Shown: positions 10,257 through 63,195, counted from the first letter of the stretch. The stretch: 64,000 nucleotides of DNA from an uncultured Lachnospiraceae bacterium (GCA_900539715.1 UQDA01000013.1:8235-72234), one strand, 5' to 3'. Translations and numbers: made by a program. The notes: generated from the sequence alone by a model not told the origin.

Positions 10257-10395
10257 GCATTATACTGCAAAGTATTTAAAAAACAGAAAGAACGAACTAG
10301 AAGCATTAAAACTTGAAGTGATGAATAATATATCCGAAATACAAATCGCATGGTCTGGTCAGGTGCAGTGCTATGTGAGCAGGAGTTTGAGCCTG

Positions 10396-10590
10396 ACGAG
10401 ATGAAAAAATCTGTCTGCAATGATTGCAATTTATGCGTTGATATCTGCCCTGTCAATGCTTTGAGAAATTCAGAAATAGATCAACAATCTTGCTGGGATT
10501 TTGCATTTGGAGATGATGAAGGAAAACAAATCTGGAAAATATCCTGCCATATAGTCTGTAAACTTTTTCCTGCTTCTTCAAATTCACCAA
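10396..10590 (+). pseudogene. possible remnant of a 4Fe-4S ferredoxin-domain gene (CxxCxxCxxxCP)
   Basis: The frame encodes MKKSVCNDCNLCVDICPVNAL, but the ORF has no stop before running antisense into tpiA. A terminator follows at 10596. Confidence 0.25.
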
Positions 10591-10595
10591 AAAAC

Positions 10596-10621
10596 CAGCC
10601 GGTTTCCCGGCTGGTTTTTAT
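10596..10621. terminator. bidirectional intrinsic terminator CCAGCCGG-TTTC-CCGGCTGG flanked by A/T runs (ends the tpiA operon)
   Basis: A perfect 8-bp GC stem with a 4-nt loop and T5/A6 flanks. Confidence 0.8.
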
Positions 10622-10664
10622 ATCTCACACTCTGAAAAGGCTATTCCGCCTCAGCATGCGATTC

Positions 10665-11414
10665 TTATTTGTAGTTTACGATCTTACCGAAGTCAGCTTT
10701 CAGAGAAGCGCCGCCTACCAGACCGCCGTCGATGTCAGGCTGTGCAAACAGCTCTGCAGCGTTGCCTGCGTTTACGGAACCGCCGTACTGAATACGTACT
10801 GCCTCAGCGGTATCTGTATCGTACATCTCTGCGATGCACTCACGAATGCCCTTGCAAACCTCTTCTGCCTGCTCGGTAGTAGCGGTTTTGCCTGTGCCGA
10901 TAGCCCAGATAGGCTCATATGCGATAACAATACCCTTTACCTGTTCAGCGGTAACGCCAGCCAGGTCGGATTTGATCTGCAGACGAATCCAGTCCATAGT
11001 AACGCCCATCTCTCTCTGCTCCAGAGACTCGCCGCAGCAAAGAATCGGAACAAGACCTGCTTCCAGAGCCTTCTTCACTTTCTTGTTCAGAACGCAGTCG
11101 CACTCTTTGAAGTAGTCACGTCTCTCGGAATGACCGATGATAACGTACTTAACGCCTGCATCTACCAGCATCTCAGCGGAGATTTCGCCGGTGTAAGCGC
11201 CCTTATCTTCAAAGTACATGTTCTCTGCGCCTACTGCTACGTTAGTGCCTTTTACAGCCTCAACAACAGGGATGATGTCGATAGCGGGTACGCAGTAAAC
11301 AACATCTACATCGTCAGATTTTACAACATCTTTTAAAGTGTTGCACAGTTCTACAGCCTGGCTGGGAGTCATATTCATCTTCCAGTTGCCGGCTACGATT
11401 TTTCTTCTTGCCAT
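10665..11414 (-). CDS. tpiA: triosephosphate isomerase
   Basis: Signatures AGNWKMN, IGHSERR and [11 protein letters not shown]. The start is at ATG 11412-11414 with an AAGGAGAG RBS. Confidence 0.95.
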
Positions 11415-11444
11415 TGGAATCACTCTCCTTGTTTAAATATAAAA

Positions 11445-11642
11445 CTTGCTTTCCTTACGAGAAACTTCAGAATTCCTCAACAGAATTCTGAAGTAGCGCA
11501 CTAAATAAGCTTTGCTTTCCTTGCGGGAAACTTCTAAATTCCTTTCAGGAATTCAGAAGTAGCGCAGAAAATAAGCTTCGCTTTCCTTACGAGAAACTTC
11601 TAAATTCCTTTCAGGAATTCAGAAGTAGCGCAGAAAATAAGC
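11445..11642 (-). repeat. three tandem 66-bp repeats, each encoding a 12-14-bp stem-loop, in the pgk-tpiA intercistronic region
   Basis: Units lie at 11445-11510, 11511-11576 and 11577-11642, and a fourth partial unit abuts the pgk stop. Units 2 and 3 are nearly identical. Unit 1 has different but still complementary arms. Confidence 0.85.
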
Positions 11643-11658
11643 TTCGCTTATTTTCTGC

Positions 11659-12882
11659 TTATTTGTCGTCAGCTGCTGCTACGCCGGGAAGCTCCTTACC
11701 CTCTAAGAATTCAAGGGAAGCGCCGCCGCCGGTGGAGATGTGGCTCATCTGAGCTGCGAAACCAAGCTGGTTTACTGCTGCTGCGGAATCGCCGCCGCCG
11801 ATAATGGTGGTAGCGTCTGTCTCAGCCAGAGCCTTTGCAACTTCGATAGTGCCCTTTGCAAGCACAGGGTTCTCAAATACGCCCATAGGTCCGTTCCAAA
11901 CAACGGTCTTAGCTGTCTTTGCAGCCTCAGCAAACAGAGCTGCGGACTTAGGACCGATATCCAGACCGATCTTGTCAGCCGGAATCTTGTCAGCGTCAAC
12001 ATACTCTACAGCGATTTCAGCGTCGATGGGGTTCGGGAAGCTTTCAGCTACAGCAGCGTCAACAGGAAGCAGCAGCTTCTTGCCAAGCTTCTCAGCCTTC
12101 TCCATCATCTCTTTGCAGTAGTCAAGCTTCTCTTCATCAACCAGAGACTTACCGATTTCCAGACCCTGTGCCTTTAAGAAAGTAAATGCCATACCGCCGC
12201 CGATGATAAGAGTATCGCACTTCTCAAGCAGGTTGGAGATAACGTTTAACTTGTCTGCAACCTTAGCGCCGCCCAGGATAGCTACGAAAGGTCTAACAGG
12301 GTTCTCAACCGCATTGCCCAGGAAGTTTATCTCCTTCTGCATCAGGTAGCCAACAACGTTGGAGCCGCCCTTTTCTGTGATGAATTTGGTAACGCCTGCA
12401 ACGGAAGCATGTGCTCTGTGAGAAGAACCGAATGCATCGCAAACGTAATCGTCTGCCAGATCAGCCAGCTCTTTGCTGAACTCTTCGCCATTCTTGGTCT
12501 CTTCTTTGCCGCGGAAACGGGTATTCTGCAGAAGAACAACGTCGCCGTCCTGCATGTTTGCAACTGCCTCTGTAGCAGCTTCGCCTGTCACGTTGTAATC
12601 AGCAACGAATTTTACTTCCTTACCCAGCTTCTCAGACAGTCTTACAGCTACGGGAGCCAGAGACTCGCCTTCGTTGGGGCCGTTTTTAACTTTGCCCAGA
12701 TGAGAGCAAAGGATAACTCTGCCGCCGTCGTTGATCAGCTTCTCGATTGTAGGAAGCGCTGCAACGATACGGGTTTCGTCTGTGATAACGCCGTCTTTCA
12801 GCGGAACGTTGAAGTCACATCTTACCAGAACTCTTTTACCTTTTACGTTGATATCATCAACGGATTTTTTGTTTAAGCCCAT
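11659..12882 (-). CDS. pgk: phosphoglycerate kinase
   Basis: 407 aa, full-length Pgk ([15 protein letters not shown]). GGAGG RBS. Confidence 0.95.
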
Positions 12883-12953: not shown

Positions 12954-12991
12954 AACAAAAAAGAGGTCCGGTCCTTATCAGACCGGACCTC
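12954..12991 (-). terminator. intrinsic terminator/attenuator hairpin between gap and pgk (GAGGTCCGGTC-N7-GACCGGACCTC + T6)
   Basis: An 11-bp stem followed by TTTTTTG on the minus strand. Confidence 0.7.
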
Positions 12992-13027
12992 CAATGGCCT
13001 ATGTCTTTATGCGAAGCGTTCAGACAA

Positions 13028-14047
13028 TTAAGCGTTCAGCAGTTTGCCGAAGTGCTTGATGGTGCGAACCATCTGGCTTGTGTAGGAGTTCTCGTTGTCG
13101 TACCAAGAAACAACCTGAACCTCAGCAAGGTCATCGCTGATAGGCAGAACCATGGTCTGTGTTGCATCGAACAGAGAACCAAACTTCATGCCAACGATAT
13201 CGCTGGATACGATCTCGTCTGTGTTGTAGCCGAAGGACTCGTTAGCTGCAGCCTTCATAGCCTCGTTGATAGCTTCCTTTGTAGGGTTGCCCTTAACAAC
13301 AGCTGTCAGGATGGTGGTAGAACCTGTAGGGGTAGGAACACGCTGAGCGGAACCGATCAGCTTGCCGTTCAGTTCAGGAATTACCAGACCGATAGCCTTT
13401 GCAGCACCTGTGCTGTTAGGAACGATATTAACTGCTGCTGCACGGGATCTTCTCAGATCGCCTTTTCTCTGAGGGCCGTCCAGAGTCATCTGGTCGCCTG
13501 TGTAAGCGTGAATGGTGCACATGATACCGGACTGGATCGGGAATGCATCGTTCAGAGCCTTAGCCATAGGTGCCAGGCAGTTGGTTGTGCAGGATGCAGC
13601 GGAGATGATGGTATCTTCGTTTGTCAGAGCCTCATGGTTTACGTTGTAAACGATGGTAGGCAGATCGTTGCCTGCGGGAGCAGAGATAACAACGTGCTTA
13701 GCGCCTGCATCGATGTGAGCCTGTGCTTTAGCCTTAGATGTGTAGAAGCCTGTGCACTCCAGAACTACATCTACGCCGATTTCGCCCCAAGGAAGCTCTG
13801 CAGCGTTAGCCTTTGCATAAATTTTGATCTCTTTGCCATCAACGATGATGGAATCCTCACCTGCTTCAACCTTATCAGCCAGTGCATATCTGCCCTGTGT
13901 AGAATCATATTTCAGTAAGTGAGCCAGCATCGCGGGAGATGTCAGGTCGTTGATTGCAACGATCTCAAATCCTTCTGCGCCAAACATCTGTCTGAAAGCC
14001 AGACGACCGATACGGCCAAAACCATTGATTGCTACTTTTACTGCCAT
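13028..14047 (-). CDS. gap: type I glyceraldehyde-3-phosphate dehydrogenase
   Basis: [15 protein letters not shown] and [10 protein letters not shown] motifs. Confidence 0.95.
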
Positions 14048-62277: not shown

Positions 62278-63195
62278 TTATTGAACCGCCTCTATTGTAT
62301 CTGAGCAGAAAGTAATTGAATACTCTATCTCATGCGGTCTGCTCATTGCTACCGTATCACCTATAACACTTATCGCTTCATCAAAAACTGTAACAGGGAT
62401 TTCAAATACCGAATCTCCTTCTTTATTAACAGGCAGATATTTTTCATCTCCGACGAGCATATAATCATAATTCGGACTATTCCACTTCAAAACAGCAATT
62501 ACCTCATCACCTGATACCGTAATAATAGCCGGTGATAAAATCTCAGCCTTTCCGCTTCCGCCTTCAAAAATAATATCAATCGCATAACTGCCGTCTTCTA
62601 AATCTATCTGTGTTTCGTTACCACTTACTTCAGATGTATCTGCGGAGTCTAAAGGCTGCGGATCAGAAACTACTACTTTATGGTCATACCATTTTCCCTT
62701 TTTTCCAATTAAGGCAACATCAAATTCTTCTCCAATCATCGGAACAGGAACATCAAAACCATATACCTCATCTGTCAGGCCATCGCTATAAGTAACGCTG
62801 TCCACCGACGGTTCTAAAAGTACGGCATTTTCTTTTTCGGCATCCTCCGCAAGTCCCGGATAAAGGTTTACGATATTCTTAGAACCAAGTGAAATATGGA
62901 TCGTCATTTTCCCATCTTCCACCGTTAACGTTCCTTTGCCATCATGGGCTTCATTCACCCGAAACATGGAACTGTCGGTATCAAATGCCGCCAGATAAAT
63001 TCCATCCGGCAGTGCATTTTCTTCTGCTTCTGCTTCTGTTACCGCCTCTGTTGCTGTTTCTGTTACCGCCTCTGTGTAAACGGCAGAGTCTGTTTCAAGC
63101 GCAGACTCCATTTCACTGTCCTTATCGGAACATCCTCCGAATATAGTACTTGCTAATACCAGTGTCCCTATGATTAAAATGTGTTTTTTCTTCAT
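62278..63195 (-). CDS. lipoprotein of unknown function with two internally repeated domains
   Basis: Lipobox FGGCSD, an acidic linker, and two similar roughly 100-aa segments (DGIYLAAFDTDSS... and DGSYAIDIIFEGGSG...). Confidence 0.55.
   Translation of the reverse strand: MKKKHILIIGTLVLASTIFGGCSDKDSEMESALETDSAVYTEAVTETATEAVTEAEAEENALPDGIYLAAFDTDSSMFRVNEAHDGKGTLTVEDGKMTIHISLGSKNIVNLYPGLAEDAEKENAVLLEPSVDSVTYSDGLTDEVYGFDVPVPMIGEEFDVALIGKKGKWYDHKVVVSDPQPLDSADTSEVSGNETQIDLEDGSYAIDIIFEGGSGKAEILSPAIITVSGDEVIAVLKWNSPNYDYMLVGDEKYLPVNKEGDSVFEIPVTVFDEAISVIGDTVAMSRPHEIEYSITFCSDTIEAVQ

What the first reader, a model, noticed from the sequence alone, without database searches (positions are those of the whole stretch)
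11445..11660. Three tandem 66-bp stem-loop repeats with compensatory base changes inside the gap-pgk-tpiA operon
The pgk-tpiA intercistronic spacer is built from 3.2 head-to-tail copies of a 66-bp unit. Each unit contains a stem-loop. Unit 1 has arms ACTTCAGAATTC/GAATTCTGAAGT (perfect 12 bp). Units 2 and 3 have different arms, ACTTCTAAATTCCT/AGGAATTCAGAAGT. Their single mismatch becomes a G-U wobble specifically in the minus-strand (mRNA-sense) transcript, so the structure is maintained at the RNA level. The partial fourth unit fuses to the pgk stop codon. This is not a CRISPR array, because the units are contiguous with no spacers. The repeats could act as an RNase-processing or stability platform that uncouples pgk and tpiA levels, or as binding sites for an RNA-binding protein.
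Basis: seen in the sequence. Interest (0 to 1): 0.7.

Follow-up and report, generated by a model that had tools for sequence, protein, structure and literature searches.

The report
Copy-variable hairpin repeats between pgk and tpiA
The gap between two glycolysis genes of a gut Eisenbergiella bacterium is filled by 2-4 tandem copies (depending on the strain) of a 66-base hairpin-forming unit found nowhere else we could search. It is a young, single-locus minisatellite that probably acts as a modest mRNA-decay barrier, not a conserved regulatory RNA.

Summary
Window 11445-11642 (minus strand is the mRNA sense) holds three head-to-tail 66-nt units between pgk (11659-12882) and tpiA (10665-11414). 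A perfect 13-bp hairpin (11630-11658) precedes them, directly after the pgk stop. Each unit carries a 13-14 bp AU-rich stem-loop.

In 13 other contigs of the same species (at most 1.5% SNPs) the array has 2, 3 or 4 units, giving 7 alleles and 7 unit variants. It is therefore a VNTR that repeatedly gains and loses units.

Stem changes preserve pairing. Two pairs changed on both sides, and three one-sided changes are G-U/G-C only in the mRNA sense.

The unit was found only at this locus. There was no other copy in about 75 kb of the genome, and none in GTDB representative genomes, JGI metagenomes, IMG/VR, plasmids or phages. Rfam gave no match.

The closest relatives found (88% nucleotide identity) have unstructured 10-37 nt spacers. 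More distant Lachnospiraceae carry unrelated hairpins at the same position, and one of these is Clostridiales-1-like.

Best reading: a lineage-specific, slippage-driven hairpin minisatellite that is co-transcribed with pgk-tpiA. It likely blocks 3'-to-5' decay and uncouples the two cistrons. Adaptive value is unproven, and neutral expansion with template-switch repair is a strong rival. Interest is modest.

The parts
11659..12882 (-). pgk (407 aa), upstream cistron; stop codon TAA at 11659-11661
   Evidence: ORF; Pfam PGK 3e-154
11630..11658 (-). Lead hairpin directly after the pgk stop: GCAGAAAAUAAGC-GAA-GCUUAUUUUCUGC, a perfect 13-bp stem. Its 3' arm is the first 13 nt of the first unit.
   Evidence: Inverted repeat I4; fold -17.5 kcal/mol, z -6.3
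11577..11642 (-). 66-nt unit, first in mRNA order (variant u1)
   Evidence: TRF; unit decomposition; nhmmer 76.6 bits
11511..11576 (-). 66-nt unit, second in mRNA order (variant u2)
11445..11510 (-).
   Evidence: (I5)
11596..11626 (-). Main stem-loop H1 of unit 1: 14 bp including one G-U, GAA loop
11530..11560 (-). Main stem-loop H1 of unit 2
11464..11494 (-). Main stem-loop H1 of unit 3: 12 perfect bp plus a U-G pair, 5-nt loop
11583..11595 (-). Small hairpin H2 of unit 1 (UUCU-CGUAA-GGAA, 4 bp as counted; a fifth U-A pair would need U47, which H1 uses). The same feature lies at 11517-11529 and 11451-11463 in units 2 and 3. Weakly supported.
   Evidence: One-sided U-G/C-G change at columns 51-57. 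It competes with an alternative basal stem that variation does not support.
11415..11444 (-). Unstructured A/U-rich tail with the tpiA ribosome-binding site AAGGAG (11425-11430); identical in all strains examined
10665..11414 (-). tpiA (249 aa, ATG at 11414), downstream cistron
   Evidence: Pfam TIM 3.9e-96; exact protein found on 24 contigs
12962..12992 (-). Canonical terminator-like hairpin (13 bp, 8 G-C, followed by TTTTTT) between gap and pgk. Included as context: the operon already has a conventional attenuation point, unlike the pgk-tpiA array.
13028..14047 (-). gap (type I GAPDH, 339 aa), first gene of the cluster
   Evidence: Pfam Gp_dh_N/Gp_dh_C

Best explanation
This is a species-specific, single-locus minisatellite (VNTR) of a 66-nt hairpin-forming unit. 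It sits in the pgk-tpiA intercistronic spacer of a gut Eisenbergiella species (Lachnospiraceae).

Shown: the ancestral-type spacer in the nearest relatives is 10-37 nt and unstructured. In this species it is 178, 244 or 310 nt, made of a lead hairpin, 2-4 units and an invariant RBS-bearing tail. Units are gained, lost and reshuffled among strains that differ by no more than 1.5%. No promoter-like or terminator-like site was called inside the spacer on the coding strand. Each unit folds into a stable 13-14 bp stem-loop (-23 to -26 kcal/mol per unit). Its pairing is preserved through every common substitution, with G-U pairs only in the mRNA sense.

Inferred: the array arose and changes length by slipped-strand mispairing or unequal recombination between the short direct repeats at unit boundaries (AAGCRAR / GCTTATTTT). 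On the pgk-tpiA transcript the row of hairpins acts as a barrier to 3'-to-5' exonucleases and/or as a processing zone. This would stabilise the pgk segment and physically and translationally uncouple tpiA, which keeps its own accessible RBS. That is how REP/BIME hairpins work in E. coli malE-malF and how the intercistronic stem-loop works in the Zymomonas gap-pgk operon (from my own knowledge). Copy number would then modulate this effect only mildly.

My estimates: the anatomy and the VNTR nature, about 0.95. A measurable effect on mRNA processing or stability, about 0.5. The array being maintained by selection for that effect, about 0.25.
For: The repeat and hairpins are real. Gene identities are confirmed. 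No minus-strand promoter-like or terminator-like site was called inside 11415-11658, whereas canonical terminator-like hairpins flank the unit after gap and after tpiA. No ORF runs through the units.

The spacer folds better in the mRNA sense (-91.5 kcal/mol, z -7.8) than in the antisense (-77.3, z -6.2). A single unit gives -24.4 against -16.4.

The same species shows 2, 3 or 4 units: 7 alleles from 7 unit variants in 13 contigs plus the window. Copy numbers are interleaved among closely related strains.

For H1 and H2, 96.8% of cells are paired, against 25-64% when partners are slid. Two pairs changed on both sides (22-42 U-A/A-U; 30-34 U-A/C-G). Three one-sided changes are all G-U/G-C in the sense strand.

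The unit is found only at this locus in 1.13 Mb of held sequence. It is absent from GTDB representatives and from JGI metagenomes except the same locus, L107. It is also absent from IMG/VR, plasmids and phages and Rfam.

Relatives have short unstructured spacers. Other Lachnospiraceae carry unrelated hairpins at the same position, consistent with a recurrent tolerance or use for a post-pgk hairpin.
Against: There are no expression data, so co-transcription and any effect on decay are inferred. Absence from the nearest relatives and copy-number instability argue against an essential or ancient function. One strain allele (u4 in L001) carries a U.U mismatch in the stem.

Covariation rests on only 7 related unit variants. 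The shuffle control is suggestive, not conclusive: 7 of 500 shuffles reach the observed score, and 44 of 500 reach the observed number of double-change pairs. The strand signature (3 of 3 wobble changes on the sense strand) has p of about 0.125 under random orientation.

The whole source genome could not be scanned. The genome-contig scan did not even recover the source locus, so dispersal elsewhere in the genome is not fully excluded.
Confidence: 0.55

Rival explanations
1. The array is a neutral (or slightly deleterious) minisatellite with no function. A short hairpin-containing segment duplicated by slippage and now expands and contracts. Stems stay paired because replication template switching within quasi-palindromes, together with gene conversion among units, repairs arms against each other, not because RNA structure is selected.
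For: The array is absent in the nearest relatives. Copy number is polymorphic and units are shuffled within one species. It is a single locus. A mismatch-bearing allele is tolerated (u4). Template switching is documented to create perfect stems and to mimic compensatory substitutions (PMC8794818).
Against: Template switching gives perfect Watson-Crick arms, yet three independent differences are G-U wobbles that pair only in the mRNA sense. All 14 arrays examined keep at least 2 units and an invariant tail. Stable hairpins in an mRNA have physical consequences for exonucleases whether or not they are selected (REP-containing mRNAs need RNase R/PNPase; PMC12320835).
Confidence: 0.35
2. The unit is a local amplification of a dispersed mobile palindromic element of the host genome (REP/BIME-, BOX- or MITE-like).
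For: The unit is largely self-complementary (63-nt arms 71% complementary; rod-like fold). The spacer looks like an insertion relative to related species. An unrelated dispersed palindrome family with the same ACTTC-GAATTC core exists in environmental metagenomes.
Against: No second copy, even a diverged one, appears in the 64-kb window or in the flanks of 13 strains (nhmmer --max, E up to 10). One JGI co-assembly that contains this species gave only the pgk-tpiA locus. There were no hits in GTDB representatives, IMG/VR, plasmids or phages. There are no terminal inverted repeats, target-site duplication or nearby transposase. Similarity to the environmental palindrome does not extend beyond the bases imposed by the search pattern.
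Confidence: 0.07
3. The array is a multi-site binding platform for a protein. It could be an RNA-binding regulator, since each unit has two invariant GGA-containing motifs (AGGAA/AAGGAAAG), reminiscent of CsrA sites. Or it could be a dimeric DNA-binding protein that recognises the 14-bp dyad repeated every 66 bp.
For: G35 G36 A37 and A55-A61 are invariant in all 7 unit variants. The spacing is regular. Dyad symmetry would equally preserve 'compensatory' changes at the DNA level.
Against: The GGA motifs are predicted to lie in stems, not loops. G-U/A.C asymmetry argues against a DNA dyad. There is no match to the cre or CggR operator consensus on inspection (my own knowledge). No conserved partner gene is nearby, and the array is absent in sister species that share the same regulators.
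Confidence: 0.05
4. The hairpins are partial intrinsic terminators or attenuators that lower tpiA transcription relative to pgk.
For: Each H1 stem is followed by UUUCUCGU or UUUCCCGU (read), a weak U-rich tract.
Against: The stems are AU-rich (4 G-C of 14) with no proper U-run. The terminator scan called none on the coding strand, while it did call the canonical ones after gap and after tpiA. tpiA is an essential glycolytic gene, and no promoter-like site of its own was called in the spacer.
Confidence: 0.03

Closest known systems
REP/BIME palindromes acting as intercistronic mRNA stabilisers (E. coli malE-malF), and the intercistronic stem-loop of the Zymomonas mobilis gap-pgk operon (both from my own knowledge; REP-mRNA decay by RNase R/PNPase cited from PMC12320835)
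   Same: One or more stable stem-loops lie between two co-transcribed genes, with no terminator U-tract. The expected effect is protection of the upstream segment from 3'-to-5' exonucleases and a different level for each cistron. The Zymomonas case is in the same pathway.
   Different: REPs are dispersed in hundreds of copies and mobilised by RAYT transposases. This unit was found at one locus only. The Zymomonas element is a single hairpin, not a copy-variable array. No stability effect has been measured here.
MIRU-VNTR loci of Mycobacterium tuberculosis (40-100 bp tandem repeats inside operon spacers; own knowledge)
   Same: Tandem direct repeats of tens of bases occupy an intercistronic spacer, with strain-to-strain copy-number polymorphism. 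The unit length is a multiple of 3 (66).
   Different: MIRUs occur at about 40 loci and carry small ORFs that overlap the flanking stop and start codons. Here all three sense frames of the unit contain stops (and direct reading). The unit is a hairpin, and only one locus is known.
Pneumococcal BOX elements (boxA-boxB(n)-boxC; own knowledge)
   Same: A modular element whose middle module (boxB, 45 nt) is tandemly repeated a variable number of times. It folds into stable RNA structure and is often co-transcribed with neighbouring genes.
   Different: BOX is dispersed (more than 100 copies per genome) and has distinct terminal modules. There is no sequence similarity, and dispersal was not seen here.
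Clostridiales-1 RNA motif (Rfam RF01699; Weinberg et al. 2010, PMC2864571)
   Same: It is a hairpin-rich structured element of gut Clostridiales. A sub-threshold Clostridiales-1-like element (38.3 bits against a gathering score of 48; E 3e-7) occupies the same pgk-tpiA spacer in another Lachnospiraceae species (L151).
   Different: The window's array gives no RF01699 hit even at E up to 10. It is a tandem repeat of one hairpin unit, not a four-stem junction.

Membership tests
Bacterial VNTR / minisatellite | Head-to-tail direct repeats with a unit of 10-100 bp | tested here: met
   Period 66, 3.1 copies, 89% matches; spacing 66/66
Bacterial VNTR / minisatellite | Copy number differs between strains of one species | tested here: met
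   2, 3 or 4 units in contigs with identical TpiA/Pgk and at most 1.5% SNPs
REP/BIME (or other dispersed palindromic element: BOX, MITE) | Many copies dispersed in extragenic sites of the same genome | tested here: not met
   No other copy in the 64-kb window or strain flanks. Only the pgk-tpiA locus was hit in a JGI co-assembly holding this species. No hits in GTDB representatives. Caveat: no complete genome of the species could be scanned.
REP/BIME | Imperfect palindrome of about 30-40 nt able to form a stem-loop in RNA | tested here: met
   31-nt hairpin, 13-14 bp
REP/BIME | Cognate RAYT (TnpA-REP) transposase in the genome | not tested
   The whole genome is not available; none was looked for in the window
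MIRU-type intercistronic repeats | The unit carries a small ORF that overlaps the flanking genes' stop and start codons | tested here: not met
   No ORF through the units; stops in all three sense frames (read)
CRISPR array | Repeats separated by unique spacers of similar length | tested here: not met
   Units are contiguous at 66/66 spacing with no unique spacers
Intrinsic terminator | G+C-rich stem followed by a run of U on the transcribed strand | tested here: not met
   None was called on the minus strand within 11415-11658, while the sites after gap and after tpiA were called
Any Rfam 15 family, including Clostridiales-1 (RF01699) | Score at or above the family's gathering threshold | tested here: not met
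   0 hits at gathering thresholds in the window. Only chance-level miRNA/snoRNA hits at E up to 10.
Selected structured RNA element (generic) | Base pairs maintained by compensatory and wobble changes beyond what relatedness gives | tested here: inconclusive
   2 double changes, 3 wobble switches and 1 broken cell among 7 variants. 7 of 500 shuffles reach the covariation score and 44 of 500 reach the count of double-change pairs. Template switching is an alternative source.
Intercistronic mRNA stabiliser / processing site | Transcript ends or half-life differences mapped to the hairpins | not testable with these tools
   No transcriptome data are available

The most novel reading that the evidence does not exclude
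The array could be a heritable, slippage-driven 'rheostat'. By adding or removing hairpin units, strains of this gut species would tune the pgk:tpiA expression ratio, or the processing of the operon mRNA. That would make it a contingency-type locus inside central carbon metabolism. More broadly, the pgk-tpiA spacer of Lachnospiraceae may be a recurrent home for fast-evolving structured RNAs: a single hairpin in L147, three hairpins in L165, a Clostridiales-1-like element in L151 and the array here. That would give the orphan Clostridiales-1 motif a first functional context.
Probability: 0.12. Interest if true: 0.6.

Novelty: new member of a known kind. Interest (0 to 1): 0.3.

Why it matters
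If the hairpin array really changes the stability or processing of the pgk-tpiA transcript, it would be a natural, population-level example of tuning enzyme stoichiometry in glycolysis by repeat copy number. It would also be a ready-made modular insulator or stabiliser part for Clostridia engineering. Even if it is neutral, it has uses. It is a clean strain-typing marker (2, 3 or 4 copies, 7 alleles) for an uncultured gut Eisenbergiella. It is also a compact natural test case for separating selection on RNA pairing from template-switch repair of palindromes.

Tried and rejected
1. Rfam at gathering thresholds over the whole window, and at E up to 10 on the spacer: nothing meaningful.
2. Coding potential: no ORF through the units.
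3. Terminator or promoter inside the spacer: none was called on the coding strand. A weak TATATT in the tail lacks a -35 on inspection.
4. Dispersed element. Mismatch searches of the window and an nhmmer profile against 1.13 Mb of held loci found only this locus. The genome-contig scan with GAAGTTTCNCGNAAGGAAAGC gave 5 chance hits in unrelated phyla and did not recover the source species, so it says little about the source genome itself. IMG/VR, plasmids and phages gave nothing.
5. The metagenome scan with the hairpin pattern returned 117 stretches. All but L107 belong to an unrelated environmental palindrome family whose similarity is limited to the bases imposed by the pattern. It was rejected as a relative.
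6. A rod-like fold of the whole unit (a basal stem pairing GCUU..UUCUGCG with CGU.AAGG..AAGC) is predicted. It has no covariation support and is broken in the u3-type units.
7. cre, CggR-operator and parS resemblance was checked by eye against consensus sequences from memory: no match.
8. TpiA hits with N-terminal extensions (P0001, P0006, P0007) were inspected as possible read-through of spacers. They are chimeric or misassembled proteins.
9. Literature search for a described pgk-tpiA intercistronic repeat or the Zymomonas case in the held library found nothing usable. A search of the Weinberg 2010 supplements for pgk or tpiA context of Clostridiales-1 found nothing.

Full report
OBSERVATION. 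The window's minus strand carries gap (14047-13028), pgk (12882-11659) and tpiA (11414-10665). Pfam confirms all three. Tandem Repeats Finder reports one long-period array in the whole 64 kb: 11448-11649, period 66, 3.1 copies, 89% matches, score 318. The repeat finder shows three copies at 66/66 spacing, the perfect 12-bp arms 11464-11475/11483-11494, and a perfect 13-bp inverted repeat 11630-11642/11646-11658. The 31-nt hairpin of the two upstream units is identical in both (11530-11560 and 11596-11626), against 0 expected by chance.

ANATOMY (mRNA sense). The order is: UAA stop; a 16-nt lead GCAGAAAAUAAGC-GAA; three 66-nt units (11642-11577, 11576-11511, 11510-11445); and a 30-nt A/U-rich tail holding AAGGAG (11430-11425) and the tpiA AUG (11414). 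The lead and the first 13 nt of unit 1 form a perfect 13-bp hairpin with a GAA triloop (-17.5 kcal/mol, z -6.3). So the sequence next to the stop codon is better described as the 5' arm of a hairpin than as a 'partial fourth unit'.

Each unit has a 13-14 bp AU-rich stem-loop (H1) and a possible 4-5 bp hairpin (H2). A unit alone folds at -23 to -26 kcal/mol (z -4.3 to -5.1), but only -16.4 in the antisense. The whole spacer folds at -91.5 kcal/mol (z -7.8) in the mRNA sense, against -77.3 (z -6.2) for the other strand.

No ORF runs through the units. No promoter-like or terminator-like site is called inside the spacer on the coding strand. Canonical terminator-like hairpins are called after gap (12992-12962) and after tpiA (10612-10593). 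Rfam has no match.

POPULATION DATA. The exact TpiA and Pgk proteins occur on many ENA, Logan and NCBI contigs, named 'MAG: Eisenbergiella sp.' where a name exists. In 13 independent contigs plus the window, the pgk-tpiA spacer is 178 nt in five arrays, 244 nt in eight (seven contigs plus the window) and 310 nt in one. That corresponds to 2, 3 or 4 units with identical lead and tail (one lead has a loop variant). There are 7 alleles built from 7 unit variants, and in one strain the unit order is rearranged (L008).

The strains differ by 2-104 SNPs over 6.9 kb of flanking sequence. Copy numbers are interleaved among close strains, for example window (3 units) against L006 (2 units) at 24 SNPs, and L007 (2 units) against L010 (4 units) at 26 SNPs. 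Gain and loss of units is therefore recurrent and recent. The array appears in long-read, MEGAHIT and JGI assemblies, so it is not an assembly artefact.

PAIRING. On the gap-free alignment of the 7 variants, H1 plus H2 are 96.8% paired, against 25-64% when the partners are slid. Three one-sided changes (23-41, 29-35, 51-57) all switch between G-C and G-U in the mRNA sense. They would be A.C mismatches on the other strand or in a DNA dyad. One allele (u4, L001) has a U.U mismatch (-18.6 kcal/mol).

The shuffle control is suggestive only: 7 of 500 shuffles reach the covariation score and 44 of 500 reach the number of double-change pairs. Three of three wobbles on the sense strand has p of about 0.125. 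A longer rod-like fold of the whole unit is predicted but gets no support from variation.

DISTRIBUTION. No second copy, even a diverged one, exists in the window or in the strain flanks. This rests on mismatch searches and on nhmmer --max at E up to 10 over 1.13 Mb of held loci. A 21-nt degenerate pattern from the unit hit only 5 chance sites in unrelated phyla among 185,579 species representatives. That scan did not recover the source species either, so it cannot speak for the source genome.

A hairpin pattern that matches all variants found the unit once in JGI metagenomes: L107, the same locus with the same allele as L016. No other contig of that co-assembly was hit. It found nothing in IMG/VR, and blastn found nothing in plasmids or phages. 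As far as could be tested this is a single-locus repeat, not a REP/MITE family. A complete genome still needs scanning.

RELATIVES. The nearest species found (tpiA and pgk 88% nucleotide identity; L026, L155) have a 20-nt spacer. Others at 79-85% identity have 10, 20, 28 and 37 nt. The four of these that were folded (L026, L028, L029, L155) are unstructured. The array is therefore an insertion or expansion specific to this species.

Three more distant Lachnospiraceae carry unrelated hairpins in the same spacer:
- L147: one 17-bp hairpin with a C-GAA-G loop directly after the stop (-22 kcal/mol).
- L165: three hairpins (-36.5 kcal/mol, z -5.2).
- L151 and L150: a 234-nt multi-stem element with a sub-threshold match to Rfam Clostridiales-1 (38.3 bits against a gathering score of 48; E 3e-7).

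Hairpins after pgk therefore recur in the family, but they are not homologous in sequence.

MECHANISM. Shown: the repeat, its hairpins, its copy-number polymorphism, its restriction to one locus and one species, and the preservation of pairing with a sense-strand wobble signature.

Inferred:
(a) Origin and length changes occur by slipped-strand mispairing or unequal recombination. The unit boundaries carry the short direct repeat AAGCRAR/GCTTATTTT, and the tail begins with a degenerate copy, TTTTATATTT.
(b) The array is co-transcribed with pgk and tpiA.
(c) The row of stable hairpins impedes 3'-to-5' exonucleases and/or offers processing sites. This would stabilise the pgk segment and uncouple tpiA, which keeps its own open RBS. 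It would act as REP/BIME hairpins do in E. coli and as the intercistronic stem-loop does in the Zymomonas gap-pgk operon (own knowledge). REP-containing mRNAs require RNase R/PNPase for decay (PMC12320835).

I put about 0.5 on a measurable RNA-level effect and about 0.25 on the array being maintained by selection.

RIVALS. The main rival (0.35) is a functionless minisatellite whose stems stay paired through replication template switching and inter-unit conversion. That process is documented to create hairpins and to mimic compensatory substitutions (PMC8794818). The persistent sense-strand G-U pairs argue somewhat against it, because template switching gives perfect arms. The other rivals are local amplification of a dispersed mobile palindrome (0.07), a protein-binding platform (0.05) and an attenuator (0.03). 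Each has specific evidence against it, given in the rival entries.

COMPARISON AND NOVELTY. Functionally the array most resembles intercistronic REP/BIME or stem-loop stabilisers. Structurally and genetically it most resembles intercistronic VNTRs such as MIRU, or the variable boxB module of pneumococcal BOX elements. It fails the defining dispersal criterion of REP, BOX and MIRU, lacks the MIRU ORFs, and is not a member of any Rfam family. It is a new member of a known kind: a hairpin minisatellite in an operon spacer. Interest is modest (0.3). The copy-number polymorphism in a core glycolytic operon and the population-scale compensatory changes are neat. But the element is young, unstable and absent from sister species, and no function has been demonstrated.

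LIMITS. There are no transcript data. No whole-genome scan of the source species was possible. Covariation rests on 7 closely related variants. The comparative sample is 10 related species.

Noticed in passing
L030-L146 except L107 (JGI metagenome contigs), e.g. L095 1198-1226, L062 1583-1611 and 2628-2656: A different, widespread perfect palindrome, AG-ACTTCCGAATTCT-N5-AGAATTCGGAAGT-CT (15-bp stem, variable loop, sometimes extended to about 26 bp), occurs at 114 sites in lake, peat, soil and sediment metagenomes on contigs of 33-68% G+C. 87 of 114 sites lie within 60 nt downstream of an ORF stop and 31 lie between convergent ORFs. One cluster of 13 follows a gene whose C-terminus looks, by eye only, like a VapC/PIN toxin (not run against Pfam). 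No Rfam family and no IMG/VR hit. It looks like an undescribed REP-like or terminator-like 3'-end element. It shares only the pattern-imposed core with the Eisenbergiella hairpin.
   Followed up: partly
L151 1391-1505 (GCA_054290725.1) and the identical spacer in L150: In another Lachnospiraceae species the 234-nt pgk-tpiA spacer holds a multi-stem element with a sub-threshold match to the orphan Rfam motif Clostridiales-1 (38.3 bits, gathering score 48, E 3e-7). It is in the sense orientation between the two genes. This is a possible first consistent genomic context for that motif.
   Followed up: partly
L147 1529-1600; L165 313-401: Other Lachnospiraceae have unrelated strong hairpins directly after the pgk stop. 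Several are capped by C-GAA-G or AAA triloops, like the window's lead hairpin (GCAGA...CGAAG...UCUGC in both L147 and the window). This hints at an older single post-pgk hairpin from which the array may have grown.
   Followed up: partly
window 12962-12992 (minus strand): A canonical strong terminator-like hairpin (13 bp, 8 G-C, then TTTTTT) sits between gap and pgk. The 'gap-pgk-tpiA operon' is therefore probably attenuated or split after gap.
   Followed up: no
downstream of tpiA: window about 10257-10664; L001/L004/L007/L010 about 10912-11620; L008 10890-14776: The region just after tpiA varies between strains. Some strains carry an extra 235-aa Fer4-like gene. One strain (L008/L019) carries a DDE transposase plus glutaminase and PNP_UDP genes. 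The window has the short form, as in L002.
   Followed up: no
window 63021-63075: A 24/12-nt tandem repeat (TCTGTTGCTGCTTCTGTTACCGCC, 2.2 copies, 89% matches) lies near the window's end. It is probably a coding repeat and was not examined.
   Followed up: no
window 1-64000: No Rfam family reaches its gathering score anywhere in the 64-kb window: no tRNA, rRNA, riboswitch or leader.
   Followed up: no
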